Source of the DNA: Candidatus Omnitrophota bacterium
GTDB taxonomy: Bacteria > Omnitrophota > Gorgyraeia > Gygaellales > Profunditerraquicolaceae
Direction: 5' to 3'
Assembly: GCA_041651115.1 (NCBI GenBank)
Contig: JBAZJY010000004.1
Location: 14,114-78,113 of the forward strand
DNA length: 64,000 nucleotides
Shown: positions 451-21,400 of the stretch, one piece after another
How positions within the stretch are numbered: position 1 is the stretch's first letter
How the letters are laid out: the number at the start of each line of letters is the position of its first letter
Position numbers and translations under genes: made by a program
The notes under the pieces: generated by a model
Databases searched by the model: none
Told to the model about the DNA's origin: nothing
The model's input: only the letters and a program-made list of their open reading frames with translations

Positions 451-3400
451 GGTAGCTCGCCGGTTGAGTCTGTTGGATATTCACTGTTTCTCGTTGAACG
501 GTTCTTGAGGATCCGCGTCAGCAGGATAGGTTCAAAAATTTATAAGTGGGTCAGAGGGATCTTTACGGGCAGGCGGTTACAGATTAGGTCATATAGCCTG
601 CCGCAGCCATATAACGGTGGGTTTATCAGCAATATTGTGCTCAAGGCCGAACACTCCCGGCTGGGGAAATTCCTGGATATTTTTACCGCCGTCTGGAGCA
701 AGAGAGGAGATATCCCATGCTATGGACGGAGAATAGAATTCGTAGATGACATTGCCGCACGCCTGTATTACCTTACGGTTTATATGGAGAAAAGAGGAAG
801 CATCGGCCCAATCCTGAATTCTTTACAAAAAGTCAGAGATTACCCGAACAAGGAATTCAATGCCTTAAAGAAAGAACAATGGTTTATAGAGTGCGATATA
901 CCCAACACCAAAGAAGCGCGCGAGGCGTTAATCAGGATTCTGCCGGCGAATATGTTTATAATCAAAGAATTCCTTACTCCTCGTCCTCACTCCGGCAACC
1001 GCATGATGCGGATTACCATTGAGGCCGAAGCTCCTGCCGGCAGGTATACCAATATAGCTATACGCAGTATGCTGCATCAACCGCCGATAAGCGCAAGAAG
1101 GGTGCATATTGAATTGGATAAGCGCCTGATCAGCTATCTTGAGAATAATTTTATGGATAATCTTGTCAGGGCAGGAATGAGATTATCCCGAAGAGATAGC
1201 CGGCTTATCCGCGCGGCATTTACAGTCCTCTCCGGAAAGCTTAGCCTGTACAGGGAAGACCTGGAGAATTTTTACTTGAGCCATCCGATTGACGTAGCCC
1301 TGATGCTTGTCCGTCAATACGGGCTAAAGAGCATAAAATCTGTCCTGGGAGGTTTATTACACGATACAGTTGAAGAGGGCTTAAGCCTTGGGGAGATTGG
1401 GTCAATATTTGGCAAAAGCATAGCGCGTATGATTTTTTGGTTAAGCCGCAAGGGAGAGAAAAAGACTTTCCTTTCCGATTATAGGTATTTGAGAAGATAC
1501 CACCGGATGTTTATCAACAAAGCCGATATATCGCTGCAGGAAGCAATAATCGTTACCTTTATCAAAATGGCGGATAAGACGCAGAATTTAAGTAAATTGC
1601 CGCATGATGAGTTGACCCAGCTGAAGAATATTTATTCCGCCCTTGACCGTTTTCTGCCGTGTTTCCTGGAAGGCATTCCTCTTGATAAATTCCCACCTCG
1701 CCTAAGGGACAGATACTATAATGCAAACAATATATTTTTCAATACACTGATTTCTCAAGGCAGATCAATAGGGGCATTTGACGAGAATTTTATTATTAAT
1801 AAAGATAAGCTGGATTTGTATCTGGATAAAGTCATCCCTCCTGAGAAAAGAGAGAAATACGATCTAGAATTTTATCAAAATGCGCTCCTGCAAGTTAAGC
1901 AGCATTTGAGTTCACCTATCACAAATAAAATTTTCTCCGCGAAGAAAGCGATTTCTATTTTTCAACAGCAGGCTGTCAGCGGCAAAAGTATGAAGCGTTG
2001 GCTGGCCAGGCATTACCTTTTTTATGATTGCGCGCCAGCATATAACGATTATGAACATAGCGATGTCAGAATATTTGCGAGTTATATATATAAGCAAAAA
2101 ATTAAAGACATAAGAAGCACTTTGTTAAACTATGCGAAATATATAGGAAGAGGCAAGCGGATGGAACAGGTGCTTATCAGACGAAATACAAAAAAGAAGC
2201 TATATCCGCTTATCTTATGGATGGCCAGAGATAATAATATCAAGCAGGTAAGACAGAAAAGAGAAGGCAGGCTTTTTGGAGCCATTGACATTTCCGCAAT
2301 GGCTGCCGCAGACCTGCCTATATGGCCGGTGGACGAGCGAGGCAGTATTAGGCAGGACCTATTGGAATGGATATCAATAAAAGACAAGGCTCCGCCATGG
2401 GAATACTATAATGCAAAAAAGATATCCCTGTGTGAAACCCTCAAAGTCCAGCCGCAGCAATTGACTCTTGATTTCCAGTCTATTAGTTCTCCGGCAACGC
2501 AAATTAAAGAAGAAGAACTCTTGGAATTAGCGAAAGAAGGCATTTTAGAAAAGGTGATTACCAACCTTGGCCGCGGGCAATTAAGGCTTTCTCCGGAATT
2601 TTCGCGTTTTAAAGAGCACTACTACTTTGGCGGGATATGCGCCAATGAGGCAGACGGAGAAGCCCTGCTGCAGCGCGCCAGGGAGGCCATTAGCCTTTCC
2701 ATAGAGAGGATCTTTAAAAATACCGAAGTTTTCGGGCAGTTTAAGTCGGCGGTTTCCGTGGAAGACAAGTTGAAAAATACAATTATAGTTTTATTGGACA
2801 GGGCAAGGCAGGATAATTTAAGCAGTATGGAGATCTGGGAGATCGCATTGGAAATGTTACGCATGGTGATAGACGGCGATCCTGACGCGGAGATCAAACG
2901 GCAGTCAAGAGAAACAGGATTTTCTTTGTTGAATACATTGCAGCAGCAGGGAATAATCAAAGAAAAAGGCAACTCTTTGGAAACCTTGTTCAGAGTCGCA
3001 GCTTTAGGCAATACTCTGGATTTTACTAATAACCATATCGCAAGGAAATCCGCATCCGGCGAATTCATTCCGGAAGAGATACTGCTTGATCTGAACAACC
3101 CGGATTTCTTTAAGCAAAATGATATAACTAAAATTGAAAAGGAATTAAGAGAGGGAGATAAGACTATTCTTTACTGTTTTGATAATGCCGGGGAAGATAT
3201 CCTTGACCTGCCGTTTATCCGGGAAATGATAAACCTTGGCAATATTGTGTTTTTTGCAGGCAAGCCTCTGCCGGTGGCGAACGACGATACGGTTAGAGAC
3301 CTGAAAACTTTAAGGATAGACCAGCGGACCAGGCAGTTTATGGGCAGTTCCATGGATAAGATATGCGATATCGTATCTACAGGCACAAGAGGACTGGGCT

Positions 3401-6400
3401 TGGATCTGGCCCGCTTGGAAAAAGAAAGGGGTTTGGGTTATTGGTGGCCCATAGCCGATATTATTTTCTTAAAAGGCCATGCAAATTATATGACTGTCAG
3501 GCCGTTTATGCCTGTCACGGATTGCGTGTTTGTCGGCAAGGTAAAGTGGTCGCCTGAATTGAATAAAGGCGGGACAGTGAATTACGAAGACGGGGATTAT
3601 TTTGTGGAATATGTCCCTGCCAGCTCGCCTGTGAAGGAAGCTTATGAATGGGCGAGAAAATATGTTCAGGAATACCAACATAAAACAGAAAATAATGGAT
3701 CTTTTGATGGACTATATGGTAATCCCGAAAAGAAAAGAGCAGAGCTTTTGAGGCTTATAGAAAAACTCAAGAGCATAGGTAATGAAACACTTCGGAATGA
3801 GTTTAAGAATGAACTTTATAATGACATCATAAGCTCGCCGATGCAAATTGCCAAAAAGCCTTACTGCGCGGTATTCATTCCGGAATTTTCCGGCAGAAGC
3901 GCGATTATGGAAATGGTAGCGCAGGAAGTTAAATGGCAGAATATGTCATTGGTAAAATTGTGGGCTGACCATATGCGCTTTAGAATAGCGAATGGAAATA
4001 AAGACGAATTAAGCCTTAAGGAATTTTGTAATTTACCGCTCAAGGCCTATCTGGAAAATCTGTCCGTAAATAAAGGCCTTTTGGCAGGCCTGTCTTTCTT
4101 GAGCCATTATGATTCTTATATTTTCTATCATACTATGCAGCAGGCGGGTTTTGAGCTTAAGGCCGCGTTCTTTATTGATTTAAAAGAGGAAGATATTTGG
4201 AAACGCTATAATAAGAAATTATTGTCCAGCACCAGCGGCAGCGCTCATATAAACAGAGCAACTTTAGAACGGAGAATAGATAATTTTAAATATTTTTCGC
4301 TTCCGGAGAAAAAGAAACTGGAAAAAGCCGGGATAAAAGTAATTAATATTGAAGGTTTATTCAGCCGTAAAATAATAGTAGATAAAATTATCTCCGGGGT
4401 CAGGTCCGTCTCCAGCTCGCCTCTTGGATGCCGCGTATGTATCACAGGCCAACAGATAAGAAGGCTGCAGCCTGTCCTGAAGAATGTCCCCTCTGCAGTA
4501 AATTCCGGAATTAAATTAGTTATTTTTGACAACGGCAATGTAATAATGAATTTTAATTTTAGGCGGGCTGTGCAGGAACTTTCGCGGCGCTTTGCAGTAG
4601 AGCCGGGAGTCGTATCGGATTTTATAAGAAATGTTGATTGCGATAGCGGAAATCCGGTTACTAGATACGGCTCCAGGGAAATATCCAGAGAGCAATTAGT
4701 AGCTGCATTTAATCCGTGGCTGCGGAAACACAGCCGCTCGGCAGACGTGAGACAGGGCAGGAAAGTATTAAGCGTAGCCGAATTCACTGATATATGGAAC
4801 AGTATTTGGACAAGCATGAATGTAAGGGTCGTTATGCTGATGTATAGATTAAGGCAGCAGGGGTATAAAGTCCACGTACTTTCCAACTTATCCGAGCTGC
4901 ATTATGAATATGCTTCCGAAATCTATACCAGGTATCATGTTTTAGATGATTTCAAAAAAGATTTTTACTATAAGAAATACTGGAAAACTCAACCGGAAAG
5001 CTATCGTGAAGTGCTCAATGATGCAAATATGCTCCCCGGAGATACGTTGCTCATTGATGATTTGCCGCGTAACATAGAAGTAGCGCGAGCAGCCGGCCTG
5101 CATACATATTTATTCAATAAATATAATTCCCGGAATATACGCGATATCGTAAATATATTAGGAATATTTTCCAGCTCGCCGATTACTATTTTGGAACTGC
5201 AGCAGGCAGCGGAAAGGAACGCGCAACAGCCTTATGTCGGAGCGGCTTTACGCAGGTTAGCGGATATCGTCTTTAAAGTAAAAGCCCTTGGCGTAATCTT
5301 ACTCAAAAGCGGGTGGCTATTCAAAGAGCAACGGTTGAAGTTTAGCCCTGCCGATCTAGAGCGGCATCTGGGCCTGTTTTCTGACTCGGATAGGGTTTTT
5401 GTGTCTAAACTTAAAGACGGTTACGTCCTAACCAACAATAAATACTTGAGACCAGTACTTAAGGAGTGGGGCATACGTAAAGAAGAAATTAATTGGTTTA
5501 TCGGCCATTACCGCAAGGACAATATCGGAGAGATCGTACGTCAGCTTAAATATGAATATCCGGCCTGCCTTACTAAATTAGCAGGCCTTATTATGAACTG
5601 GAACCTTACGGTTTATTCGCTTTTCTTTAAACGTTCTGACTTACAAAGGGAAGGCCTGCCGGTTGATACCTTAGCCGAAGGACTTAAGCGGCTGATGAAT
5701 GATATTAACAGCGGAATAGAGGATTTTACCGGATTGGTTCCGCAGAACGCCATAGACCAGGTGAACAAAGCGGTAAAAAACCTAGAACCTGCCCTTTTGG
5801 CTTTAGAAGCAAACAAGAAGCCGGAATTTAACCTTCTTGAGTTGACTGTCTGTACTCAATTTGTTTCCGCGCTCCTGAACGTATTCAAGGAACAGAAGCG
5901 CCTGTTGGCTGAAAAGATAAAAAGCGACCGCGGAACGAATCGTTATTCCTTTGAGGCGCGCTATTTTTCTGTCTTGCAGCAGGGCTATGCCAGCGTGGGC
6001 CTCTGGGGCATCCAGGTGCTTTCCGACAGTCCTAAAAAGTATGATAATTTATTTGAATTTTTCCGTTCTATTGACCACCAGATAGATTCTGAACTGGATG
6101 ATATTGATCTTTTTGAAACAGTTAACCTACTGATCCGGCAGGTCCAGGAAGGCCTGGATAAGGAGGCTTTTGTTAAAGGCATGGATTCTCTATCCGGCAG
6201 CCTTAAGAAAGTCAAGGATCCCTATAAGATTATGGCGGCTATCCTGTTGGGCTATGCAAAGGGCTTGTTAGAGATTAACCGGCTTAAACAGGGGACTGGG
6301 CTTTTCGAATTTGCCCAGGAGATGCTGACTTTGAGAGTTAAAAACTGCTGGGGTATCATCAATACCCTTGACGGCGCCTGGGCTGAGGGGCTGCGCGGCC

Positions 6401-9400
6401 ACATCAAGAAGCGTAATGATTATCTTAAAGGTAAAACAATAAAGATCCTGCATGACTTAAAATTCAGGCATTATAAATTCGCCCGTAAGGTTCTGAAAGA
6501 GGATATTATAGACGAAGCGCATTTATCCTTTATCCGCGATCCAGAATTTGCTATGTTTGAAAAGCCCTTTGCACTATTAAATAAATCTTTTTATGAAGAT
6601 AGCACATTGAACAAACTTGAAATTGCGCGGGCGCACCAGTTATTCTCTCTTTTCTTTGATATGGTAATTATTAGTGAGTTGCGAGGTAAATTTATGATGG
6701 ATTACCGTAGGCTATTTGTGAATTCCCGTAAGCCCGGAGAAGCCCGTCTTTCCAGACAAGAAGCATTTAAGCAAACATATTTTAAATACCGCGATTCTTC
6801 CAGGGCGGTATTATCCAGGCCGGAGTTTTATTTTTATCTATTCTGGCAGGCGGCCTTTATCCCGGTGCATACTAAAGAAGATGATAAGCCGGTTAATCCC
6901 GTATTTTCAGCCCTGAACAGGTATGTCTTATCCGGCCAGATTAAAGAAAAAAGATATAGTAGGCTTACCCGGCCGGAAATGCCGAAATTAAGCGAAACGC
7001 AAGCAGCAGAATTTTCCGCAATAGGCGAGCTTTATAAGGAATGGTCGCAGGAGTATGGGATTACCAGGGCCGGGCCGCAAGCCAGCTCGCCGCTTGATTC
7101 TTTGGATTTCCCCGTGGTTATCATCGGCTCGTCAGACGGCGGGAAAGAAGCGATCCCCGCCATTTTAAATCCTGTTTTGAACAGCAAGCCCGATTTGGGT
7201 TTCAGCTGCATTCTTGCCGCCCATAATTTTAATACCAACTACTATCCTTATAAAAAGATCTCAAGAATAATATTGCAGAATATAGCAGATACCATCCAGG
7301 CAGACGTTACTGAAATATCCGATGGTATGCCGGTAGAAAATAACAGGATATATATTGTCCCTCCGATAAGCAATATTTCGCTTAGCAAGGAAGGAAAATT
7401 TGAAGTTTCCGGGATAAGGATTGATTTTATTAAACGCAATCCCAGTAAGAACATCATTAACATTGATTTCTTACTGGATAGCGCAGCCGAGTTCTTCCGA
7501 GATAGGCTGATTGCGGTTATAGCCAGCGGAAACGGCAGCGATGGCAGCAGAGGGTGTTCTTATGTGAAGCTTTATGGAGGCAAGATTTGGGCACAGCGCG
7601 ATGCGATAGAAAAGGCCATGCCTACCAGTGCCCTCAAAACATGCCTGGTTGATGAAATAAAGTTATCCAGTTCTCCGCTAAAAGCAAAAAACGCGATCTT
7701 CTGGTTATTTTTCGCAGCAATGATCACCTTAGCCTTTAAGCAGGCAAGGGCGCAGGAATGGAGCGCTTATCTTTTGGATAGTAACCATAAAGCCAGGGTA
7801 AGAAGCCTTAACTTGACTCACAGCGACATTGCCATAAGCGTGGCTCGGCTTTGGTCAGCGCAGACAGATATTACAACCGTTGATATACAAGACAGCAAGA
7901 AAAAGTATCACATTAATTACATGAAATATGCGGATGCGCTCCAAAAGATAGAAGAAGATCTTGCTGCCGGGAAGAAATTGATCGTAAATATGAATTTCGG
8001 CTCTTACCTTGATTTTTATTCTTTTGAGCATGCCATTTTGGACCTCTACCTTAAATATCCGCATACCTTAATCCTGGTTGCTCCCGCAGGTAACGGTAAT
8101 ACCGATTATCCGATGTATCCGGCAGCCTATGATTTTGTCTTTTCAGTTACCAGTGTTACGGCTGGCTCCGGCTGCTATGTTAAGACAGGCTATGGTAATT
8201 ATGGCGCTTTCGTGGACATAGCTGCCATTGCGCAATCAGAAGAAGGAATGAGCAAGAAAGAGAAACAATATATGCAAGCAACCTGTTTTGCCGCGCCGCA
8301 GGTCGTGGGATTGCTGCTTGAAATATTCGCCGTCAATCCCGTTTTAACTAAAGAAGAAGCCGTAAGGATCATCCAGGATACCGCTGATCCGATAGAAGGT
8401 TACGATTTTAAAGTAATGAATCCTGAGCGCGCTATTAACGAAGTTAAAGCAAGGCTGCTTGCCGCCAGCTCGCCGGTTGTTAGGTATGGCAGCCAAATTA
8501 CGGAATGCCGATTATTGAGAGAAGAGGAAGCAAGGAGCAGGCTTAAACAAGAATTTAATTTTGATTATCCGCTTGATTTAATGAAAACAAATAGGCCTGG
8601 CGGAGCAGCGCCTCGCCTAGCTTCAAATATTTATGCAAAATTAAGCGCCGTAGAGAAGGAATTTCCCGGTTTTAAAGTACCGAAAAAATGGCTCGGGTAT
8701 AACATTAGCAGGATTATTAATAATACAAAACGCAAACTGCAAGAACAGGTAGATAAGCCAAGGCGAGAACAAGAAGCGGTATTAAGGCTTAAGGCAGAAC
8801 TTGGTTTTATTTATCCGGACTCATTAAAACCAAGTGACAGACCAGGGGGGAGTAACTCTATTTCTGCTTCAAAAGTTTATGAAAAGCTAAGCGCTGTAGA
8901 AAAAGAGTTTCCCGGTTTCAAGGTACCTGCAAAATGGATCGGAAAATGGGATGTTTCAACTCTTGTAGAGAGAGTAAGAGACAGGATGTCAATAAAGGGC
9001 AAAGATGCAGTTAAGAGATTAAAGGACGCATTTGATTTTAATTATCCTGTTGATTTAGTGCCTACTCATCGTCATTATTTTAGCGCCACAGTTATTTATA
9101 TAAAATTTCTTGAAGTTAACAGCGAATTGCCTGGATGTAAGATATATAAGTCACTATTGAATTTATCTTCGGAGGCGATCATTTTTAAGTTATCTGCGAA
9201 TATGGCGGGAAAAACTTATGATAAGAAAATTGAATATATTAAATTACTCAATAAGGTATTCGGTTTCGCCTATGAAGAATTATCGCCTCGTATCAGGGCT
9301 GAATTTAAGCCAAGAACGATATTCCGTCGCCTTGTTTATATAGAAAAACGGTTATTAAAAGAGCCTGCCCTGAGAATACTCGGGATCAGATGGAAGAACA

Positions 9401-12400
9401 TACCATATAAGGTTATCTTTAAGAGATCCGCAGATGCCGATTTGCAGGATTATCTTGACGGATTGGCCGCGGGCAAGTTCACCCCTGTATCAACAAGCAA
9501 GGGGATAATAAGGTTCAAGATAAACATCAGCGAAGAAGAGGCAATAAAGAGGATTGCGGATGAATTTGGTTATATCTATCCATATAGCTTTCCTGTGAGG
9601 ATTTGGCCGGGCCAGAAGCGTTATTCGCCGCCTAGTAGTATCTATACTAAGTTAACGAAAATAAGAAAAATGTCTCCGGATTCTGAAATTTCCCTTTGGC
9701 TGCTTGAATATGGCCTGGATACTGCTATCAATAAAATCAAAGGTATAAATGACCGTAAAGCCGCAGCGCTAGAGTCGCGAGAACGCAAAAAAGCGCTGAT
9801 AGAACAATTTAAATTAGGTAAACGCTATTTTTCGCATTCTTTAGAAAAGGTAGCATATAAATCTTCGCTTCAGAATGAAAAAGAACAAAGAAAAGCGGAA
9901 AACAATAGGCAGAAATTAGAAAAAAAGAAGGCCAGGGAAGAAGCTAAAGAGGGAGCCAGGATAAAGAGAATGCTAATTATTAAAAAATACAACCTGCCCA
10001 TTTCATATTCTAACCGCAGCCTTGCTTTTATTGAAAAGCGGGTCCAAGAGTTAAAGGACAAAGAGTATAATTCTGCAAGTTATGAGAACTATGTAAATAA
10101 AATAATGCATAGATATTATCCCGGCCGCAATATAGACATAGAAATGCTTTGGCAAAAGATGAAGCAAGGAGAAGGAATGGCAAGAAAGACCATTATCGAA
10201 TACGTGCTTAATCTTGTTATAGAGATAGAACAAGGCAATAAAAGTAGGAAAGAGATCTTGAGGTCTGTGTATAAACTTCCTTCGCATAAACAGTATACCC
10301 GCGACGATTATATACAGGAAGGAAATTTGGCCGCGCTTCAGGCGTTGGATAAATGGAATCCTGCTTGGGGAATGAGCCTTGAATCATTCCTTAGGGATGA
10401 GATAGGGTCTGCGGTTAAGAGGTCTAGGGCGACAAAAATTAGAGATGACAAAAGGGCTATCTCCCTTCAACAACCCAAGGGTAATAAATCTAATAGCGGA
10501 AATTTTCGCACCGTAGAAGACCATCTTGCTAATCCGGATGATGAGCAGTATTTGCCTGGACCGGCTGAAAGGTTTGAGTTTATGTCTAAAAAGATACGCA
10601 GTAATGATTTCTTATTTCTTGCCGAGGCCGGATACCCTATTAACAAGGGTTTACTTATCAGCAATGAAGAAAAAAAAGCTTTTGCTAAAGCCTTCAACAA
10701 CCATCTAATAAACAGCGGAATGTTTAAAGATACTCCTTTTGATATTGCTGTATTGATCATCGGCAGTATGGGCAATATTGGGATCGCCCGCAGGAAAATA
10801 AATCCCAGCGACTTAAATCTTATTGTTCTTTCAGACGTTCATCAAAGTCAGTCTATAGATATACATCGCAGGCAGTGTCGGGAGGTAATGGCTAGGTTCA
10901 AAGACTGGATCGGAAGCGGTGATATCTATCATATGACTGAAGGCGGCGAAAGATTTACGCTTCAGGTAGAAAAGGATAGCACCGTTGAGTCTTCCAAATT
11001 GCTGTCATTGCTTCAAAGCTATGGCTTAAAGAGTAAGGTATCACTTGAATTAATTCCTCTTGACGGCAATATTAACGTTGTCAACAGGGCAGCTTGTCGC
11101 AGCCATATCCAAATAATGGAATACTTCTACCAACTAGGCGCAAACGGCATCCTTATTTTTGAGTCTAAAGAAGGATTTGCGGAAAATATACTGGATAAGC
11201 TATCAAAAGGTCTTGAAGCTGACGCCGTTGCATACGAACCGATTGCCGCCAAGTATATGCTGGATTTCTGCCTGAGGCAGATTGATAAGGTCGTCCGTCA
11301 GCAGGAAGCCGCGGTTGTCCAAGGCAGCTCGCCTCTCGGCTGCGTCGTGGCAACAAGGAGCAGCGCCTTTAATGTTCTTGCTAGCTCGCCGGTTGAGCGT
11401 TCCCGGCCGCAGAAGATGAGCCTCAACGCGTTCTTGGAGCGGGAAAACAACGAGTTATTAAAAAAATCCGTTAAGCCTTTAAGCAGGCTTAGATGGTCGG
11501 TAAGGGCGGTTGACTGGATATTCGCGTTTGTAAAATACCCGTTACTGTCCAGCGCTTCTCTGGGAACTTTGCTGCATAGCTTAGGAAAACTTGACCTCAC
11601 GATTTTTGGCAGCCATATCGGTTGGAAAATGGTCATCGGAGTTATCGGCAGCGCCTTGTTTATCGTTACGGTAAGACTGGCGCAGGTTTTTATCTTTAAA
11701 TATTTTTATCCTGAAGTTTCTCTTCCCAAATGGCGGCGCTTTATTCTTCCGCTGATAATGCCTGCTCCTATAGGCGGAGAATGGCTTATGTTCAGGATAT
11801 TAAGTCCGTTATCTGATGTAAAGGAAATGAAACTGCTGCGGGATATAGAATATTCTCTGCAAAATATTATTTATAGATCAGGGAAATCATTCTCCGCGCG
11901 GATAGAAGAATTATCTGAGGGATGCGTCCCGGAGATCGCCAGAAAAATACTGGATTATGGAAAATCAAGCATCGGGGAAGATTATCTCAAGCGCGCAAAT
12001 CGCAGATTGATCAGCAGTAGAAAATATATCTTGAAGCTTTTGAAGAGCAATTTCTCGGAAGACCCCAGGGTAAGGAAAGAATCACATTCTGATTTTATTA
12101 TAAAACTACCTACCGGATTTTCTCCGGAGATGGAGCGACAACTAGAGGCGTTCAGGAAAGAACATGAAAAAAACAGCGGAGAAGCCAGTTCGCCTGCCAT
12201 ATACGAAACTGACGACGGCTACCGGGTATATACGTTAGCCCTCAATCATAATTCCTATGTTTCTATAGCGGAATTAGGCGCTAATATCGTAGACCTGGTA
12301 ATCGCAGGCAAGCGCATAGTCTGGCACAAAGGCTTTGACCCTGCCGCAGGAAGAGTCACGCGTTTAAAAGATCCGGTTACCGGAGCTAATCTTCCCGGCG

Positions 12401-15400
12401 GCATACCTTTTATGTTCCCTTGGACCAGCCGCATTGATAAATCGCTAGCGTGCTTTTTTGGCAGAGCGATTGATCTTACTGATCCGAGCCTGACATTAGT
12501 GCGCCGCGTCCCGGATGCCAAAACCGGGCCGAATGTACTGCACGGGATGACCGATAAAGTAAAATGGCTTAATGAAAAAGTGCATCCGGAATTTATCAAA
12601 TTCTCCTGTTTTACGGGCGCATTCAATGAAATATCCAGCCGCTTCGGCTTGCTTAAGGCCGAGCTTGTTTTTCGTCTGGAGAAAAATACGCTTACGGTAC
12701 ATACAACCGTAGCCAATAAAGACACAAAATTACTTATTTTTAGCTTTGGCCATCACCCATTTTACTTTCTGCCCGATATCCGGCAATGGCAGGCGCAGGT
12801 CCCGGCAGAGATGTATTGGCAGACAGATGCGGCGCAAGTCCCGCTTTACCAGCAGCCGCTCGCAGTAGAAGGCCCTACTGACTTGCGTAAGCTTACTTCT
12901 ATAGACCGGCCGTTTGAACAGGGCTATACCGGGCTTAGAGTTGATAAGGGAGTAATAACTTCGTATTTCCATAATGATAATACCAAAGAAACTTTAACCG
13001 TTTCTCAAGGCTCGGGGTATACAAACCTAATGTTTTGGGTACCCTTAGGTAATCCTAATATTCCTGAAGGAGTAGCCAGTATCCAGCCGCTGGTTTCCGT
13101 AGCTAACGCTATTAATCTCTTTAGTCATGCCAGGCAATGCCGGGATCCTGTAATTGCTAAATATGCCAATCCGGTTATTCTCTTCCCGGGTGAGCAGATC
13201 AGTGTATGGTGGAGAGTAAGTCTTGACGCCGCTATCAGTTCACCGGTAACAGAAAGAAAAATCCTGTTGGCAAAAAGGGAAGAACGTAAAAGAAAAGAGT
13301 TATATAAGGAAATGGAAGCCAGGGGAATAGATATAGATGTTCCTCCCAGCCTGATTAGGCACCACAGTGTTACTACCGTCATTAAAAGATTAGAGAAGGA
13401 GATGGCAGCCGGTATCGAGAAAGAGAATAGAAGGAAATTAATCGCCAATCAGGCAAAAAAAGAACTCGAAGAGAGTCACGGGATTGTTTTGCCTGCCGGG
13501 TGCCTGCGCAGAGGCAAGAACTACGTTGATCCGGTAAAATTACTTAATAAAATAAAAGGAATAAAAACAGAGCTAAAACGCAGGGGCATTATTAAATATA
13601 CCATTACCAAGAAGCAGCTTTTCAATAATAATGCCGAACGCATAGTAGAGATCATCCAGGCGCGCTCCGCAGCAGGCAAATACCAATCGTCGTATCGCAA
13701 GGAATCCGTAAGCAATAAAAGGATTAAGGTGCGAAAATTTACCGAGGCAGAATACGCAGCCAAGCTTATTGATGATTTTCAGTTTGATTATGGAAATTCA
13801 AAAAAGATAAGCTTGGCCTCAAATCTGTATATAGCTTTGAGTAAAGTAAGAGAAGTTTTTCCTGATTTAAGAAGAGAAGAGCTTCCGGAAGGATCAATCT
13901 GGTACGGCCAAGCTAAAATCGTAGACGCAATTTCCAAGAAAAGAAATGCCCGGGAAAGGGGGAGCAAGAGAGAAGACGCTGAAGCAGCATACCAGAAGAA
14001 ACTCTCAGAAGAGTTCAATTTTATGTATCCGGATGGGCTGCCTGAAAGTAATCAGCCGGGCAACGGCCACTGTATAAGTGCTTATAAGGCGTACAGGGCT
14101 TTAATAAAGGTAAAAAGCCTACTGCAGGAAGCGGGATTTGAATTACCCGATGTAAACACATTTACATATATGTTGGGATGTACCCCGGAGTTTATCAGCA
14201 ACAGCTTAATAAAGACGCTCAAATTCAGGGAAAATAAAGCAGCCGAAGAAGAGAAGAATTCAGAGGCCAGGGAAAAGCTTTTTATTGATTTTGAGTTTAA
14301 CTATCCGCAAGATTTAGGGCATTTTGGCAGCGGGTATCCTGTTATTTCCGCATCGCGGTTATGCGCCAATCTTATAAAAGTAAAAAAAGAATTACCTGAT
14401 TTTAATTGGAAAAACCTCCCGTTAAAAGTGCTTATCAGGTATCCCTCAAAGATCATCATTTACCTGAAGTCAGTGCAGCAAAAGAAAGACCGGCAAGAAG
14501 CTGTGCGAATAAGCCTGAATAGGGACTTTGATATAACTAACCCCGAAACATTAAAGATTACTGCTTCCAAGGCGCGCAGTAATTTACTCGCCATTAAGCG
14601 GATATTAAAAAAGCGAAGACTGGCTCATCTACAAGTGCCGAAAAATATGCTTTCGCTTGCTCCGGCTACAGCCGCCAAATTGATCAGGGCGCAAGAATTG
14701 AGGAGGAGAGAAAGAAAGATGGCCGGGATTGCGTTGAAAGCGGAAAAACAAAAACTGATCAATGAACATCAATTACCCAAGGCCTACTTTTTACGCAGTA
14801 TATCTTTTATAAAAGAGATGATCAAACACGGGCCGCCGCGCCTGGATGCCTGTTATGGCGGTTATAACCGTTATGTCAATTATATCTTCAGTCATCCGTC
14901 TAAAGTTGAGGAAATGGAATTAGAGCTTCTTTGGCAAAAGATGAAAAAAGGCAACAACTCGGCATATTGCAAGTTGGCGGAATACTTCCTGCCGGTAGTG
15001 ATTGAAATGGTAGAGGGAGAAACCAAAAAAGGTATTCTGTCGCGGCCATCCAATTATTCGGAAGAACACCAGAAGGAAATGGACGATTATGTCGGCGAAG
15101 CCAATTTAGCTATGCTGGAAAGCATAAAAGAATGGGAACCTGGTCCAGGCAGCACGCTTGAAGCTTTTGTAAAAGAAAAGATCAAGGCTGCGGTCAATAA
15201 GTTAAGGTCTAAGAAATATGCCGAGAAAAGACGGAACGACGATAATATAGATTCGGCAAGGCGGCAGATTTTAGAATTTTCATCCCAGGATTACAGTCAG
15301 CATCCGGATAATGCCTTAGAGCGTTTTGAGATGATGAAAAAGGTAGTAGCGAGCATAAAGAAAGGTAATTTCGGCTTTCTGGCTGATGCCGGCTACCCTA

Positions 15401-18400
15401 TAAACCAGAAAGCGCTCTTTAGCCTTACGGATAAACTATCTATTAAGCAGGAACTGCGTAATTATCTCATCCGCAGCGGGATATTCAGCGCTATGCCGCT
15501 CAGGTTTGCGATGTGGATGATTGCCAGTATGGGCCAGATCGGGCTTGCGCGTAAGAACTTAAGCGACCTTAATCTCCTCATCATCTCTGATTCGCATCAG
15601 GAATCCTCTATGAACGAACATCAGGCCATTTGCCGTGAATCCATGGTTAATCTTAAAGAGCTCGTTGGAACCGGCAAACTCATTGAACAGAGGATAGATG
15701 GTAAAAGGCTGGTATTGGAAGTCGGAAAGGATAATTCTTATAAGAATAATAAACTTTATCAATCTGAATTTATATCTTTACTTAAAGACCATAAGATAGG
15801 AAGCCAGGAACGCGGGTTCGCTTCCATAGAGCTGGTTTCTTTGAACGGCAGTATTGAGCCCGGCAATAAAGCTCTATACCGCGGCGGTTTCCATGTCGCA
15901 GAAAACATCTATCAGATGGGTTCAAACGGGATCCTTATTTTAGAATCGGAAGACGGCGTTGCCCAGGAAATGGCCCAGGGGCTGCATCAGCAGTTACAGG
16001 CCGATCATAATGAATATCTCTATTTTATATGCAATTACCAGCTGGATTTCTTTGCCAAGCAAGTAGAAAAAGTAAGGCAGCAACAGGATGCGTTAATCGC
16101 GGCAAGCAGCTCGCCGGCAGATATCAGCAAGGCATACATTAAATATTTAGAGAATCCCCAAGCCATGATTGACGAAGATAAAACCCTGGTCCTTGCCTTT
16201 TGCCATAACAACACGGATATGGACGGTATGGCTTCCCTCATCGGACATGTTTATTATTGCCGGGAGATTGAAAGTAAGGATATCCTCATAATGCCGGTTA
16301 TCCCCCAGCAAGGGGCGCTTCCGTGGAATATAGTGCATATTTTGCAGCGCGGCGGGATCAATAAAGATGACTTCTTTTGTTTTGAAGACATAAAAAGTCA
16401 TCTTGAGAACATCGCAGCCAATCCCGCATTCATGGAACGCATATTGCTTGACCTGCTTGACCATAATGACCCGGAAGAAAAAAGCCTGGAGCAATTTGCA
16501 ATCCGCAATATCATTGACCACCATTCCCTGGAAAGGGAATTACCTTATAGGGGAGTACGCAATATCCAAAGGATAGGGGCAACTGCCACGGCCGTTACAA
16601 TGAATTATTTTAACCGCGGGATAGCTATGCCGTATGGCATAGCTTATATCCTGCTTGCCGCCATCTGCCTGGATACGGACAGTTTTTGTTCCAATACCGT
16701 AACCCGCAGGGACGGCAAGGTGGTCCAGGAATTGGCGCGCCTGGCTAAAATAGACGCAAATAAGCTGTTTGACGGCGTTTCAACAATTTCATATTGCACG
16801 CGCGCCTCTACCTGGGGAGAATGGCTTTATGACGTTAAAGAATACGGGGCGTTGATTTTCAGGCAAACAAAAATAAACGATATGGATGAATTAAAGAGCA
16901 TTACCAGGAGCATGATCATCAGCCATATCAAAGAGGAAGTGGAGAGCCGCCCTGAGATTCGCGCTCAAGTCTGGATGGTAACAAGCATGGATCAGAAATC
17001 GTACGGCAGCATGGTTTTTGTATATGCTAAGTCCGGAGTAGAATATGGCAACAGGATCATCAGGGCGATATCGGATTTAGAAATAACAAAGGCAGGCCTG
17101 GTTGAGGCGTTATGGATGAAGCCGGCCTTGAAAATGATCCAGGCGGGGATAAAAAAGGCAGACTTCAGATATATCGTGAATGTATCCGGAATGGGCCTTA
17201 GCGCCGATAACGGAAGGCTTAAGGCGTTCAGGCAGCTTGCCGCATCTTTGATCAAAAAGAACCATTTATCATTGAAAAATAACGGCCAGTTGAATATAAA
17301 AATTAATTCCCATCGCATCGCAAAAATCCTTTTAAAGTCCCTTTCGCAAGACGGTATAAAACTTGATTTATCTACGATTATGCGGATGCAACGCGATATT
17401 GACGGGGTCGTTATGCTTTATTTTTCCGGCTGCGGCTCGCGCAAGATGTGGAAGGATGCCGTGCAGGAAGTCATAAAAGAAACCATAAATAAGACGAGCT
17501 CGCCGGTGGCTGCGGAGATGTATTGGCTGCGGGATGCGGTATGGGTGATGGGCGGAGAAACTCTCTCTGCCTTGTTTAACGATAATAAGGAAACCTTTAA
17601 AAAGATATATGCGGTGGTAATTGCCTGGTGGCTTCAGGGGGTGCTTGCTTATGCGCTGGCTCGTATTTTTGGCGGGGATATCTTCACTGCCTGGGGCATA
17701 TTCCTGGCCGGGCATATGTTAGATTTCGTCCTGAATATTCTTCGTTCCAAGGGAGCCCGCGCGCCGCCGCTTAATATGCTTATCGCCGCTTTAATCGCAT
17801 CTGTCAGCCTGGCTATGGGTTGGTCAACGATCAATCTCTTATCCTGGGCTGTACAGGCAGGAGTTGCCCTTTTCTTCCTATCTCTTTCCTTAGTGTCTTC
17901 TTCAGTATGGCGCCGCCGCACGGTTGTTCTATTCAGCCTTATTCTCGTTTTAGCCTCTGTAAAAATCATTGATAATTCATTGCGTTATTACCGTATGGAC
18001 GATGAAGCAAAGGCCATAGCGCACAGTTATTCACTTCCAATAATACCGCAGGAGCAACACGGAACATACTGGCAGGATGAATTTAACAACATGGATCAAC
18101 TGCTTGATTTTATTTCCGACCCCGAGGTTATCAATGTTCCTTCTTTTGAGGCGCGCGAGCAGGCTTATCTGGCAAAGGTAAGGCTACTGGTGAACGCCCA
18201 AACCGTCTTTGCCGCGGATAAAATATATGCAGGGCAGCGATTGGGGCAGCTCGCAGCTAACTATCAGGAAATAGTTTCATTACCTGATACGGCATTCTGG
18301 TTTCGCTGCAGCGAAGCAGAAATGTTGACCGTGCTTTTACGCAACCGTATGGATGTTGCCTCTCGCCAATTATTATCAGCAGACGTGGATAAATTATTTT

Positions 18401-21400
18401 CCGATGAAGACTTCCCGGATCGTTTAGTCAACGATCCTATGTTTGGCTTGTATTACGAATATACCGTTTTATACGGCCATTTTGCTCAATTTAACGCTAA
18501 CATGAATTCAATTACGCAGGCGCGGGGAGATTCAGTGCATGCTATGCCGCTGGTATTGCTTGAGCCTATTCGCCAACTGCGGCAGGCTCCTCCGAAATTG
18601 GTTAAAGAATTGAAAGCAGCAGCAGATACATTTGGCTTAGATTGGGAGTTTACTGCCAGTCATCTTATCAATGTTGATGATGTCAGGTATTCCCTGCGTG
18701 CGGGATGGAGACATTACCGGATACGTAAATTTAACCAGGGAAACCCCATAGAAGATACTTATCGTTATGATCCAGAAGGGTTGGCGTTGCCTCGGTATGT
18801 TAACGATGCGTTAGGCGGTATAATCATTGGCGGCGGCAAGAATAGCACGGGTTCCTTTCAAATGCGCTCTTATGAAGTGCGCAGATACAATCTTTTTAAG
18901 AATCTGGGGATCGATGCCGCAAGCTTATCGGACCGCGAAATCAATATGTTATTGCTTAAGCCGGAATATGCTGCCTGGGCATGGGTAGCGTTTAACAGGG
19001 CGGCTATCAATGAAGTTGATTATTTACGTACTTCCAACCAACATGAGGTTAATGCAATCATCAAAGGATTAAATAAGAGCGCTACTGTAGGGGGCTCCTT
19101 CATTTTTGCATATCCAAAAGAGCTTTTCTCCATGCTTCCTTCAAAGGCGGACCTAGGCAGGGCCGATTGGATGCTGACTTTATACCATCCCCTATTTAAT
19201 GGAAAGCTGTTTAGTTCCTTATCATCGCAGTATATCGTCATTGTCTCCGGCATCGGCGACAATAAGCCGGGGATTTTTACCGGCATAAAAACGAATCAGG
19301 ATATCTTATCTTTACGATTATTATTGTCTGGTCGCGATGCCTATCTTAGGGATGCAGCCTGGCGTACCCTGGAAGCTTTAGCCAGGGATTCTACAAATAT
19401 TGACCTGCAGAAAGCATCCCGAAAAATATTACAGGAAGCTTCTGGTAGCTCGCCGGTTTCCGATAATCCGCCGCTTCCAGACAACCGTACCGCAGTTCCA
19501 GCGGGTTATGCGTTGATCAGCGATGCCCAGGGCGCCAGTTATTACGATCTTTCTGGCGATCGGAGGTCATGGAAAATTCTGCACCGTCGGATCAAGAATG
19601 CTCTCCAGACGCATTATCCGATTAATCCGCTTATTCAATTAATTAGTGAAAAGGAGTTGCACTTGTTGATTATGCCCGGAGTTATCCAACGTGGCCGCGC
19701 CTTAGTAAGATTTCTACAGGATATCTATTCCGGTGAATGGAAAGCAGTCAGAGATGGGGTTATACCCGAATCCGTAGTGCGCCGCGCTCTCAATAGCCAG
19801 GGTTTTGAAGAGCTTGTAGGCAGATTGCCTACGGAAAGCATAACCATTACTTATGGGCCGGATTTGAACTATGCCGCAGGATATGTATTTGATGATAATA
19901 TCGGTTCGCTGGGCGGAAGGGAGATAATCTTCCGCGGACAGGAAGCCTTGTTAAGGATTTTTCCGGGTATTGGCCTATATCATACCGTTAATATTTTCCG
20001 AAAATACATTAAGGAGCTGGAAAATGTCCTTTCCGGCCGGGAGGGCATTATTGCGGCCTGGCGGCATCCCTGTTTTAGCGAAGGCGGCAACCAGGAATTC
20101 CTAAATAATTTATATAAAGAGTGCGGTATCGCGGTTGTAGGATATGGCTTGCCTAATATGAACAGGTTTGAGGTCCGCCCGGGAGGATTATTTATTTTGG
20201 ACCGGAATAACCGGGAAAATAGAGTGAAATATTTGATCTACAATGATTATGATTTCTCTCTGGATCCGGGTTATCTTCCTTTTAAAAACCGCATGAAAAT
20301 TTTTGGTTACAAGGAGATTGTGAATGGTATTCCCGGCATAGTCGGTTTGATTGAAAGTGGAAAATTGCTGATCGGCCATCACCCGGGTTCTTCCATGGCT
20401 GACTCTAAGCTTGTCTATCCGTTCGTACGGAAATTTATTCGCTACTATCTTGGGGAAGATCCGCTTTTGAAGTCCAGTAGATGTTTTGCTTTAAAAGAAG
20501 GTTTTGGGTTGCCAATAATGCCTTTCGGCGACGCGCTGGCAAGGCAAAACGAGTTGGTGCTTAAACCTATTATGGGAGAGTGGGGCAAGGGAGTCCGTGT
20601 GGGTAAAAAGATCAGCCATGACCAATGGCGCAGATTTTTAGTGGAAGCGTATCTATGCCCCCATGATTATATTTTCGCTGAGCATATTCAGCCCATGATT
20701 TTAAGCGATTATATAGTTGTGCATAGAATAATCTGCGACATTATGGCTGATGGCAGGACAGTGGTCCAGCCCGGGATTTACGGGAGATCTAAGCGTAATG
20801 AAGAGGGTAATGGCGTAATCGGTTGCCCGGTGGATGGTGTTTACAGCCGCACTATGCTTACGATGGCAGAAGGCCTCACCTTCCCGATGCGTGCCAGTTC
20901 GCCGGTAGAAGATAAAAAAATAGCCGATACGATAACGGTCACTCTAAAATCTGAACGGATGGTCACATTAATAATTATGGTTTTAAAGGGTTTTCTCGTA
21001 ATGCTCTGTAGTTATTATATCTTTCTATCAATCCCGTTGGCTTATCTTATCATGTTTATATTTTGGATTGGCGGTTTAGATTATTCATTTTCAGAGACCT
21101 TCCGTTACGCCAATATTTTATCAGTGCTTATGCTTTTTTATATTCGGAAAGCCTTTCCGGAACTTCCGAAGCTAATAAAAAAAGAACGGATTGTTTTTGC
21201 AGACGGCAAAGGCCGTATTTATGAATATTCCGGTTCTACATATATATGTCATGGCGAGACTGAAAAAGGCAGGCATGTATTAGAGAATATTAATGTGATA
21301 GGCAAAGATCTGCACGAGCAAGGGGCGCCGGCTCTCCTGATAATCTCCTGTAATCCTAAAGGCGGGAAGATAGAAGAAAGATTGCCCCTTTATTATATAC

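What the first reader, a model, noticed from the sequence alone, without database searches (positions are those of the whole stretch)
10130..15230. Sigma-70 region-2-like segments embedded inside a giant, apparently non-regulatory protein
The stretches DYIQEGNLAALQALDKWNPAWGMSLESFLRDEIGSAVKRS (about 10300-10430) and YVGEANLAMLESIKEWEPGPGSTLEAFVKEKIKAAVNKLRS (about 15090-15220) each follow a ...LWQKMK... helix, like sigma region 1.2/2.1, and fit the sigma-70 region 2.1-2.3 consensus. Neither is followed by an obvious region 4 HTH. Sigma-factor core-binding elements inside a polyprotein would be unusual. They may be a released module or a decoy.
Basis: partly seen in the sequence, partly recalled or inferred. 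Interest (0 to 1): 0.55.

Follow-up and report, generated by a model that had tools for sequence, protein, structure and literature searches.

The report
Sigma-factor-derived modules inside a giant protein
Two real but incomplete copies of a bacterial sigma factor's RNA-polymerase-binding domain, each fused to a nucleotidyltransferase-like domain instead of the usual DNA-binding end, sit inside a giant (at least 23,900-residue) multi-enzyme protein of an Omnitrophota-type bacterium, an arrangement not described in the papers searched.

Summary
Both stretches (nt 10306-10425 and 15088-15210) are true homologues of sigma-70 region 1.2-2.4. Pfam Sigma70_r2 scores sit at or near threshold. A 15-member family profile hits solved sigma factors (sigma-K E=6e-6; 44 of 48 hits are sigma). 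Profile-profile probability is 98.8%, and Foldseek probability to SigA, RpoS and RpoH is 0.99-1.00.

No region 3 or region 4 follows. After a sigma-type post-region-2 linker (SLxxPxG...T[VL]ED) comes a 250-residue domain. Its confident model (pLDDT 88.6) matches only Pol-beta-superfamily nucleotidyltransferases, weakly (TM about 0.3). Its second catalytic Asp is an invariant Asn.

Each sigma2-NTase pair ends a roughly 955-residue unit bounded by Ser-Ser-Pro-[VLAIM] motifs. The window's open frame has 29 such motifs (about 2 expected), and no Pfam domain crosses one. The frame is the C-terminal part of a gene of at least 23,923 residues. All 26 close relatives lie inside other very long proteins or fragments, and every named one is Candidatus Omnitrophota.

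Most likely this is an RNA-polymerase-core docking module, not a promoter-specificity sigma. RNAP binding, release by cleavage and enzyme activity are all untested. I rate it a new variant of a known kind, of moderately high interest.

The parts
1..29721 (+). C-terminal 9,906 codons of one giant open reading frame. It is open from the first base of the window and the stop codon is at 29719-29721. The same gene is called as 23,923 residues, running to the contig end, on ENA contig ERZ27247363 k141_2001242.
   Evidence: Pfam tiling with HD, ARMT1, HAD, CheB, S8, aldose epimerase, DHH, ATP-grasp, RPE, RpiB, M23, CBM48 and methyltransferase domains.
8467..11325 (+). Unit A (953 residues) between two Ser-Ser-Pro junctions. 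It comprises N-terminal repeats of about 90 residues, a Lys/Glu-rich helix, a sigma2-like domain, a linker and an NTase-like domain.
   Evidence: SSP sites at nt 8467 and 11326. Paralogy with unit B.
8467..9921 (+). Unit A N-terminal half: about five degenerate repeats (consensus RLKxEFNFxYP...RPGG...IYxKLxxVxKEFPGF). Fold and function unknown.
   Evidence: Internal and A-versus-B BLASTP repeat alignments. No Pfam hit at E<=1.
10126..10443 (+). Sigma2-like domain, copy A (regions 1.2-2.4). The LWQKMK helix is at 10147-10164 and the region 2.1-2.2 motif DDYIQEGNLAAL starts at 10300.
   Evidence: Pfam Sigma70_r2 24.1 bits; PDB profile hits; hhalign 98.8%; model pLDDT 87-93; Foldseek hits to sigma factors; BLASTP to sigma factor P0029 E=2e-13.
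10444..10563 (+). Low-complexity linker, copy A (ISLQQPKGNKSNSGNFRTVEDHL...). It aligns with the post-region-2 linker of small sigma factors (SLDEPAGDEEEGDGDRTLHNIV), but the acidic run is replaced by Asn/Lys/Gly.
   Evidence: Predicted disordered, pLDDT below 50 at model residues 139-171.
10564..11325 (+). Pol-beta-fold nucleotidyltransferase-like domain, copy A. The GSMGNIGIARRKINPSDLNL motif is at 10759-10836 and the third-acid strand VSLELIPL at 11038-11061.
   Evidence: Model pLDDT 88.6, pTM 0.87. All top 50 Foldseek PDB hits are Pol-beta-superfamily NTases. Invariant and near-invariant residues. Motif coordinates.
13237..16107 (+). Unit B (957 residues) between Ser-Ser-Pro junctions, with the same architecture as unit A.
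14908..15234 (+). Sigma2-like domain, copy B. LWQKMK is at 14929-14946 and DDYVGEANLAML starts at 15082.
   Evidence: Pfam Sigma70_r2 E=0.016. 36% identical to copy A across the C-terminal half. Family HMM envelope 14827-16095.
15316..16107 (+). NTase-like domain, copy B. The ASMGQIGLARKNLSDLNL motif is at 15520-15591 and ASIELVSL at 15820-15843.
11326..11334 (+). Ser-Ser-Pro junction codons (AGC TCG CCT) that close unit A. Equivalent junctions are at 8467, 13237 and 16108, out of 29 in the frame.
7921..8385 (+). Subtilase (Peptidase_S8) domain in the segment immediately upstream of unit A. It is a candidate processing protease; this is inference only.
   Evidence: Pfam E=7.3e-8. S8/C39 cleavage was suggested for Omnitrophota giant proteins in 10.1101/2023.11.21.568195.

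Best explanation
Each flagged stretch is the sigma2 domain (regions 1.2-2.4) of a sigma-70-family protein that has lost regions 3 and 4. It keeps the flexible linker that follows region 2 in small sigma factors. In place of sigma4 it carries a divergent Pol-beta-fold nucleotidyltransferase-like domain, with motif GSxGxxGxA-x(7-9)-[SC]DxN, a later Glu, and an invariant Asn where the second catalytic Asp should be.

This sigma2-linker-NTase piece is the C-terminal half of a discrete unit of about 955 residues, bounded by Ser-Ser-Pro-[VLAIM] junctions. The unit occurs twice in the window's part of an Omnitrophota-type giant multi-enzyme gene.

Shown here: the homology, the fold, the lack of sigma3 and sigma4, the unit boundaries, the family and its host taxon.

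Inferred: the sigma2 part still docks on the beta-prime clamp helices of RNA polymerase core. This brings the NTase-like domain to the polymerase, roughly where sigma4 would sit near the flap and RNA exit. The module therefore acts as a polymerase-bound accessory or regulatory factor rather than as a promoter-specificity sigma. It could act as part of the giant chain or after cleavage at the SSP junctions.
For: Homology to sigma2:
- Pfam at or near threshold.
- PDB profile search: sigma-K E=6.1e-6, 44 of 48 hits are sigma factors.
- An exhaustive 1.8-billion-protein search returns Pfam-verified small sigma factors at E 5e-5 to 6e-4.
- hhalign 98.8%.
- BLASTP to sigma factor P0029: 28% over 137 residues, E=2e-13, running through the linker.
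- Foldseek probability 0.99-1.00 to SigA, RpoS and RpoH, and to phage sigma factors.

Copy A keeps D-x-x-Q-E-G-N of region 2.2, and the helix stays acidic across the family. Acidic residues on the equivalent helix of T4 gp55 contact the clamp helices (PMC7892883).

No sigma4: no r4 hit in 15 members, and hhalign stops at region 2.

NTase fold: model pLDDT 88.6, and all top 50 PDB hits are Pol-beta-superfamily enzymes or pseudo-enzymes (OAS2 E=2.4e-3, probability 0.97; TdT; Cid1; TENT5; CdnD; OASL; NF45/NF90). There is a GS...DxN motif and a DUF294 NTase hit in one member.

Discrete unit: SSP junctions flank both units. In other lineages the module's C-terminus lies just upstream of that lineage's own punctuation motif.

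Conservation: 36 library hits, 19 at E<=1e-10. All strong hits lie inside other very long proteins or fragments, several with 2-4 copies.
Against: - RNA-polymerase binding was not tested.
- Across the family the region 2.2 contact residues are only partly kept. The Gln position is mostly Gly or Ser, and the Glu position is Glu in 5 of 15.
- The Trp-Trp dyad of region 2.3 is replaced by charged residues, so sigma-like DNA melting is unlikely.
- NTase fold matches are unanimous but weak (TM 0.25-0.33, best E=2.4e-3). No sequence-profile match to any solved NTase was found.
- The invariant Asn in the catalytic DxD position argues against ordinary two-metal catalysis, so what the domain does is unknown.
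- The A4 sigma set used for hhalign was itself retrieved with the family profile, so that test is partly circular. The PDB search is not.
- The N-terminal half of each unit is unexplained.
Confidence: 0.45

Rival explanations
1. Exapted scaffold. The sigma2 fold is an evolutionary relic kept only as a helical accessory domain of the NTase-like enzyme or pseudo-enzyme. It no longer touches RNA polymerase.
For: Family-wide loss of the Gln/Glu contact residues of region 2.2 and of the Trp-Trp dyad. The strictly invariant positions lie mostly in the NTase-like domain (K212, S243, G245, G248, N260, R354, G367, N369), with only W38 in the sigma part. Many Pol-beta NTases carry helical accessory domains (established knowledge).
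Against: The sigma-type disordered linker of 30-60 residues is retained between the two domains. That fits two separately docking domains better than one compact enzyme. Copy A retains the full D-Q-E-G-N signature. pTM of 0.58 for the two-domain model against 0.87 for the C-domain alone suggests no fixed interdomain packing.
Confidence: 0.25
2. A true alternative sigma factor. Once released, the unit directs promoter-specific initiation. The N-terminal repeats or the C-terminal domain would substitute for sigma4, as in T4 gp55 with gp33, or in sigma-I with its non-sigma4 C-terminal domain.
For: The sigma2 domain plus finger-like linker is what minimal sigma factors keep. gp55 works with a sigma2-like domain alone (PMC7892883). 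SigI6 8i24_F is among the PDB hits. Related Omnitrophota giant proteins embed complete sigma factors, so transcription factors are encoded in this way.
Against: Region 2.3/2.4 residues for -10 recognition and melting are not conserved, and the Trp-Trp dyad is replaced by Asp-Glu in copy A and Glu-Lys in copy B (inspection). No HTH was detected anywhere in the unit. The acidic sigma-finger run is replaced by Asn/Lys/Gly.
Confidence: 0.15
3. A decoy or effector. The module is delivered to, or acts on, a prey or host cell's RNA polymerase. It occupies the sigma-binding site and modifies or blocks the enzyme through the NTase-like domain.
For: Omnitrophota giant proteins have been linked to predation (10.1101/2023.11.21.568195). 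Sigma2 without promoter-recognition residues is what a competitive blocker would look like.
Against: The units have no signal or translocation feature. The units are cytoplasmic-type sequence, and their neighbours are ordinary sugar-metabolism enzymes. There is no evidence of export.
Confidence: 0.1
4. Chance resemblance: an unrelated helical bundle that happens to fit a loose consensus.
For: Single-sequence Pfam scores lie at or just below the curated threshold.
Against: Profile, profile-profile, pairwise and fold evidence all converge on sigma factors.
Confidence: 0.02

Closest known systems
Sigma-70 family, small group 3/4-type sigma factors (solved examples sigma-K 8vjl, sigma-F 1l0o; library proteins P0029, P0033)
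   Same: Regions 1.2-2.4 share sequence and fold. The D-x-x-Q-E-G-N helix is present in copy A. The SLxxPxG...T[LV]xD linker comes directly after region 2.
   Different: There is no region 3 or region 4 HTH. The Trp-Trp melting dyad is absent. The acidic finger is replaced by Asn/Lys/Gly. The C-terminus is an NTase-like domain. The module is embedded in a giant frame rather than being a 20-30 kDa protein.
Bacteriophage T4 gp55 (with gp33)
   Same: A sigma-family protein reduced to a sigma2 homology domain that binds the beta-prime clamp helices through acidic residues. The sigma4 role is filled by something unrelated (PMC7892883).
   Different: gp55 still recognises a -10-like element. It is a free small protein, and its partner gp33 is a separate polypeptide, not a fused NTase-like domain.
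Pol-beta-superfamily nucleotidyltransferases of the OAS / CD-NTase / TENT / Cid1 type, and their pseudo-enzyme relatives OASL and NF45/NF90
   Same: An alpha/beta core carries the GS-x(9-13)-D motif on strands 1-2 and an acidic residue on the next strand. All top 50 fold matches belong to this superfamily.
   Different: TM is only 0.25-0.33. There is no sequence-level match to any solved member. The second catalytic Asp is an invariant Asn. The N-terminal partner is a sigma2 domain.
Omnitrophota giant proteins ('Archaeovorins'; 'multi-enzyme metabolic clusters')
   Same: The gene is at least 23,923 residues and tiled with unrelated enzymes, including an S8 peptidase. It lies next to a sugar ABC transporter. 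Relatives are named Candidatus Omnitrophota.
   Different: Neither preprint contains the words sigma or nucleotidyltransferase, the 2026 one also lacks 'SSP' and 'motif', and reading the sections retrieved showed no punctuation motif. One of them states that cleavage points are unknown.

Membership tests
Sigma-70 family RNA polymerase sigma factor | Sigma2 domain (regions 1.2-2.4) recognisable by sequence and fold | tested here: met
Sigma-70 family RNA polymerase sigma factor | Region 2.2 core-binding signature (D-x-x-Q-E-G-N) | tested here: inconclusive
   Intact in copy A. Copy B has D-x-x-G-E-A-N. Across the family the Gln position is mostly Gly or Ser, and Asn is kept in 9 of 15.
Sigma-70 family RNA polymerase sigma factor | Region 2.3/2.4 aromatic and basic residues for -10 melting and recognition | tested here: not met
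   The Trp-Trp position is Asp-Glu in copy A and Glu-Lys in copy B. Only the preceding Phe/Tyr is kept. The numbering of the sigma-70 residues comes from my own knowledge.
Sigma-70 family RNA polymerase sigma factor | Sigma4 domain with HTH for the -35 element and the beta-flap | tested here: not met
   No Sigma70_r4 or r4_2 hit at E<=1 in 15 members. hhalign ends at region 2. The model shows an alpha/beta domain instead.
Sigma-70 family RNA polymerase sigma factor | Binds RNA polymerase core and confers promoter-specific initiation | not testable with these tools
   Needs biochemistry.
Pol-beta-superfamily nucleotidyltransferase | Alpha/beta NTase core fold | tested here: met
   Model pLDDT 88.6. 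All top 50 Foldseek hits are from this superfamily, with probability up to 0.98 but TM about 0.3.
Pol-beta-superfamily nucleotidyltransferase | hG[GS]x9-13Dh[DE]h motif plus a third carboxylate (two-metal catalytic triad) | tested here: not met
   G67, S68 and D83 are present, and E162 is a candidate third acid. The second carboxylate is an invariant Asn (N85) in 30 of 30 sequences.
Omnitrophota giant multi-enzyme protein ('Archaeovorin' / class 1 of 10.64898/2026.06.07.730766) | Frame longer than 10,000 residues, tiled by many distinct enzyme domains, in an Omnitrophota genome | tested here: met
   At least 23,923 residues. At least 14 different Pfam families in the window part. The taxon is inferred only from relatives: L002, P0002, P0012 and P0019 are all Candidatus Omnitrophota. 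The window's own genome was not placed.
Polyprotein (post-translationally cleaved) | Recurrent junction motif at module boundaries | tested here: met
   29 SSP[VLAIM] sites against 2.1 expected. No Pfam domain crosses a site.
Polyprotein (post-translationally cleaved) | Actual proteolytic cleavage at the junctions | not testable with these tools
   Needs proteomics with N- and C-terminal peptides.

The most novel reading that the evidence does not exclude
The giant gene is a true bacterial polyprotein, or a co-translationally acting chain. Its embedded sigma2 modules grab the beta-prime clamp helices of the very RNA polymerase that is still transcribing the gene of more than 70 kb. This is the site that NusG, RfaH and sigma compete for. 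The tether would couple polymerase and lead ribosome repeatedly, with one module every ~5 kb here. The NTase-like domain would be parked at the RNA exit. The result would be a self-encoded, cis-acting processivity and coupling device for giant genes.
Probability: 0.05. Interest if true: 0.9.

Novelty: new variant of a known kind. Interest (0 to 1): 0.62.

Why it matters
Sigma factors are the textbook free, exchangeable subunit of bacterial RNA polymerase. Here the polymerase-docking half of a sigma has been cut away from its DNA-reading parts and welded to a nucleotidyltransferase-like domain. It is then repeated inside the largest class of bacterial proteins known.

If the module binds polymerase, it defines a new class of polymerase-associated factor. 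It would also tie the unexplained Omnitrophota giant genes to transcription.

Separately, the Ser-Ser-Pro punctuation gives concrete, testable candidate cleavage points. The literature on these proteins explicitly says such points are missing (10.1101/2023.11.21.568195). It also gives a principled way to cut giant proteins into units for structure prediction.

Tried and rejected
- The word-index protein search found nothing, either with copy A or with the 15-member alignment. Only the exhaustive representative search found relatives.
- The first genome scan with A1 found no relative. The A2 alignment was too divergent to derive patterns. The A3 alignment found a single Omnitrophota locus.
- A PDB sequence-profile search with the C-terminal domain alone returned nothing.
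- A profile of the GGD-type repeats that precede the module in relatives matched nothing meaningful in the PDB, only designed helical repeats at E>=0.07. It did not detect the window's own N-terminal repeats. Pfam was also silent on them.
- I considered region 4 hidden in the ERFExM helix after the linker. This was rejected because there is no r4 hit, no hhalign extension, and the model folds that helix into the NTase-like domain.
- I considered that the long frame is an artefact of a reassigned stop codon. This was rejected because the frame is already open under the standard code, and the downstream genes are of normal size.
- I considered that SSP is a purely nucleotide-level signal. The relative L002 keeps the peptide with mixed Ser codons, so the conserved feature is the peptide. 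The strong codon bias within this gene remains unexplained.
- Literature searches for Omnitrophota with polyprotein, and for sigma with nucleotidyltransferase fusions, returned nothing relevant.

Full report
**What is at the coordinates.**
The window's + strand carries one uninterrupted reading frame from its first base to a stop at nt 29719-29721. Each is preceded by an LWQKMK helix, at nt 10147-10164 and 14929-14946. On an ENA metagenome contig (ERZ27247363, k141_2001242, 99.6 kb) the same gene is called as 23,923 residues and still runs to the contig end. The window therefore holds only the last 9,906 codons. Downstream lie ordinary chromosomal genes of normal size: a PilZ protein, a sugar ABC transporter, a glycosidase, a ROK kinase, NrdJ, MnmG and the Pst system.

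**Is the sigma resemblance real?**
Yes, on several lines of evidence.
- Pfam Sigma70_r2 scores E=9.2e-5 (22.6 bits) for the first copy and E=0.016 for the second. The trimmed first copy scores 24.1 bits against a gathering score of 24.
- The two copies are paralogues, 34% identical over 479 residues, E=2e-81.
- An exhaustive HMM search of 1.8 billion representative proteins with the two-copy profile gave 36 hits. The strong hits are segments of other very long proteins or fragments.
- The weak tail of that search (E 5e-5 to 6e-4, library-wide) consists of small proteins. I verified seven of these with Pfam as genuine sigma factors: Sigma70_r2 scored 27.8-57.6 bits in all seven, and r3 or r4 was also found in four.
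- A profile of 15 family members searched against all PDB sequences returned 48 hits, 44 of them sigma factors. The best were sigma-K 8vjl_B (E=6.1e-6) and sigma-F 1l0o_C (E=6.3e-5), aligned over regions 1.2-2.4.
- hhalign against the seven sigma factors gave 98.8% probability, E=7e-17, over 102 columns. This test is partly circular, because those sigma factors were retrieved with the family profile. The PDB search is not circular.
- Pairwise BLASTP of copy A against sigma factor P0029 gave 28% identity over 137 residues, E=2e-13.
- An AlphaFold model of the copy-A C-terminal half (429 residues, mean pLDDT 76.8) has pLDDT 87-93 in the helical part. It gave Foldseek probability 0.99-1.00 to SigA, RpoS and RpoH in the PDB, and to phage sigma factors in BFVD.

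**What the sigma part keeps and what it lacks.**
The hhalign alignment stops at the end of region 2. No member of the family has a Sigma70_r3 or r4 match even at E<=1.
- Copy A keeps the D-x-x-Q-E-G-N signature of region 2.2. Copy B and most relatives keep only part of it.
- That helix stays acidic across the family. The equivalent helix of T4 gp55 contacts the beta-prime clamp helices through acidic residues (PMC7892883).
- The Trp-Trp dyad of region 2.3 is Asp-Glu in copy A and Glu-Lys in copy B (sigma-70 numbering from my own knowledge).
- Directly after region 2 comes a predicted-disordered linker, ISLQQPKGNKSNSGNFRTVEDHL. It aligns with the post-region-2 linker of small sigma factors (SLDEPAGDEEEGDGDRTLHNIV in P0029). 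Its acidic run is replaced by Asn/Lys/Gly.

So this is a sigma-derived domain, not a complete sigma factor.

**What follows instead of region 4.**
About 250 residues downstream are conserved in all relatives.
- A 30-sequence alignment has invariant K37, G70, N85 and N194. Near-invariant positions are G67, S68, G73, A75, D83, G136, E162, R179 and S201.
- This gives the motif GSxGxxGxA-x(7-9)-[SC]DxN, followed by a later strand with Glu.
- The domain-only AlphaFold model is confident (pLDDT 88.6, pTM 0.87).
- All top 50 Foldseek PDB matches are Pol-beta-superfamily nucleotidyltransferases or their pseudo-enzyme relatives: OAS2, TdT, a CCA-type enzyme, CutA, Cid1, TUT7, TENT5/FAM46, CdnD, Pol beta/lambda/mu, OASL and NF45/NF90.
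- The matches are weak. The best E is 2.4e-3 and TM is 0.25-0.33. No solved NTase matches at sequence-profile level. One member gives a marginal DUF294 NTase hit.

I therefore assign the fold class with moderate confidence. The second catalytic Asp is an invariant Asn, so ordinary two-metal catalysis is doubtful.

**The unit and its host.**
The frame contains 29 Ser-Ser-Pro motifs, always followed by Val, Leu, Ala, Ile or Met.
- Shuffling predicts 2.1 +/- 1.4 such motifs.
- The 10,397 residues of downstream normal proteins contain one, not followed by a hydrophobic residue.
- No Pfam domain crosses a site. Several domains fill the space between two sites almost exactly; CheB, for example, lies at nt 7117-7659 between sites at 7084 and 7669.
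- The two sigma-bearing units are bounded by such sites at nt 8467/11326 and 13237/16108. They are 953 and 957 residues long.
- Each unit consists of about five degenerate repeats of roughly 90 residues with unknown fold, a Lys/Glu-rich helix, the sigma2 domain, the linker and the NTase-like domain.
- Only these two copies occur in the window.

**Relatives.**
The only hit among GTDB species genomes is a Candidatus Omnitrophota single-cell genome (L002 = P0002). Its contig is filled by one frame of 6,862 codons, open at its 5' end. That frame has 38 SSP motifs, and its module ends ...DDASSSPVTLE. All named relatives are Candidatus Omnitrophota.

Other lineages use other recurring motifs, and the module's C-terminus lies just upstream of them:
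- P0016 has twelve copies of [SP]x[AS][RH]F[AG]E.
- P0012 has four copies of a G.GP.AMA.MLP transmembrane motif.

Two relatives (P0016, P0019) also embed complete sigma factors in addition to the sigma2-NTase module. In P0016 both r2 and r4 score above the Pfam threshold. NCBI already names P0019 a sigma-70 family protein for this reason.

**Comparison with the literature.**
The gene fits the Omnitrophota giant proteins called 'Archaeovorins' (10.1101/2023.11.21.568195) and the 'multi-enzyme metabolic cluster' class (10.64898/2026.06.07.730766). These have many unrelated enzyme domains and S8 or C39 peptidases suspected of cleaving the chain. Carbohydrate import genes lie nearby. The first preprint states that information on cleavage points is absent. 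Term searches found no occurrence of 'sigma' or 'nucleotidyltransferase' in either preprint, nor of 'SSP' or 'motif' in the 2026 one; the only 'motif' hit in the 2023 preprint is a title in its reference list, and the sections I read describe no junction motif. Searches for sigma-NTase fusions or Omnitrophota polyproteins returned nothing relevant.

**How it most likely works.**
Shown here:
- a sigma2 domain plus sigma-type linker fused to a Pol-beta-fold domain;
- a discrete, repeated, conserved unit;
- no sigma3 or sigma4, and no melting dyad.

Inferred: the sigma2 part docks on the beta-prime clamp helices of RNA polymerase core and brings the NTase-like domain to the enzyme. It would act as an accessory or regulatory factor, not a promoter selector. 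It might act after release at the SSP junctions. I give this 0.45.

The rivals are:
- a sigma-derived scaffold with no polymerase contact (0.25);
- a true minimal sigma in the manner of gp55 or sigma-I (0.15);
- a decoy or effector aimed at another cell's polymerase (0.10);
- chance resemblance (0.02, effectively refuted).

**Verdict.**
The finding is a new variant of a known kind: a sigma-family domain in an undescribed fusion and context. Interest is 0.62. A specialist would be surprised by a sigma2-NTase module repeated inside giant proteins, and the junction motif makes the open question of giant-protein processing directly testable. The function, however, remains inference.

Noticed in passing
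window 454-29578 (29 sites, e.g. 8467, 11326, 11383, 13237, 16108): There is Ser-Ser-Pro-[V/L/A/I/M] punctuation throughout the giant frame: 29 sites against about 2 expected by shuffling, and 1 in 10,397 residues of the downstream normal proteins. No Pfam domain crosses a site. The segments (19-957 residues) look like separate proteins. These are candidate polyprotein cleavage or junction sites. I found no such motif in the two Omnitrophota giant-protein preprints I checked by term search and partial reading.
   Followed up: partly
window, same 29 sites: Codon choice at the junctions is far from the frame's own usage. The first Ser is AGY at 29 of 29 sites (p=3e-12). The second is TCN at 28 of 29, with TCG at 20 (p=1e-11 given 14% usage among TCN). 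Pro is CCG at 24 of 29. The consensus is C-AGC-TCG-CCG-GT. The relative L002 keeps the peptide but with mixed Ser codons. So either the junctions in this gene share recent ancestry or are homogenised, or there is an added nucleotide-level constraint.
   Followed up: partly
window 1-156 and upstream (outside the window): The frame is open from base 1. The '157 GTG' start in the ORF list is an artefact of the window edge. On ENA contig ERZ27247363 k141_2001242 the gene is called at 23,923 residues and still runs off the contig end. A further 42 kb of this gene was not examined.
   Followed up: partly
P0016 residues 57-3747; P0012 residues 1026, 2104, 3568, 4810; P0023/P0025: Other giant proteins carrying the same module use different recurrent punctuation motifs. 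These are [SP]x[AS][RH]F[AG]E (12 copies in P0016), a G.GP.AMA.MLP..P.L transmembrane motif (4 copies in P0012) and H.ITAAGQF (P0023, P0025). This suggests lineage-specific junction signals.
   Followed up: partly
P0016 about residues 700-1100; P0019 about residues 1900-2120: Complete sigma-70-type factors are embedded inside two related Omnitrophota giant proteins. In P0016, r2 scores 33.4 bits and r4 scores 28.6 bits. In P0019, r2 scores 31.9 bits. NCBI names P0019 a 'sigma-70 family RNA polymerase sigma factor'.
   Followed up: yes
window 8467-9921 and 13237-14700: The N-terminal halves of both units are about five degenerate repeats of roughly 90 residues (RLKxEFNFxYP...RPGG...IYxKL...FPGF). 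They have no Pfam or PDB match. By eye they resemble the YPTxExA..AL..RP..RT...L....GGD..L..AC..F.I.LP repeats that precede the module in relatives (more than 30 copies in P0001), but an HMM of those repeats does not detect them.
   Followed up: partly
window 11326-11382 and 4414-4440: A 19-residue mini-segment lies between two SSP sites (SSPLGCVVATRSSAFNVLA|SSPV). The opening SSPLGC[RV]V recurs at nt 4414. Its purpose is unknown.
   Followed up: no
window 7921-8385: A subtilase (Peptidase_S8) domain occupies the SSP-bounded segment immediately upstream of unit A. It is an obvious candidate for a self-processing protease.
   Followed up: no
window 21592-23217: Ribulose-phosphate 3-epimerase and RpiB lie together in one SSP-bounded segment, with a second partial RpiB-like stretch. 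This would be a fused pentose-phosphate pair inside the giant frame.
   Followed up: no
window 29762-33608: A PilZ-domain protein and a sugar ABC transporter (substrate-binding protein plus two permeases) directly follow the giant gene. This matches the reported proximity of carbohydrate import systems to Omnitrophota giant genes.
   Followed up: no
The word-indexed 5.8-billion-protein search returned no hit for this family, even with a 15-member alignment. The exhaustive HMM search found 36 hits. Giant-protein segments seem to escape the indexed search.
   Followed up: no
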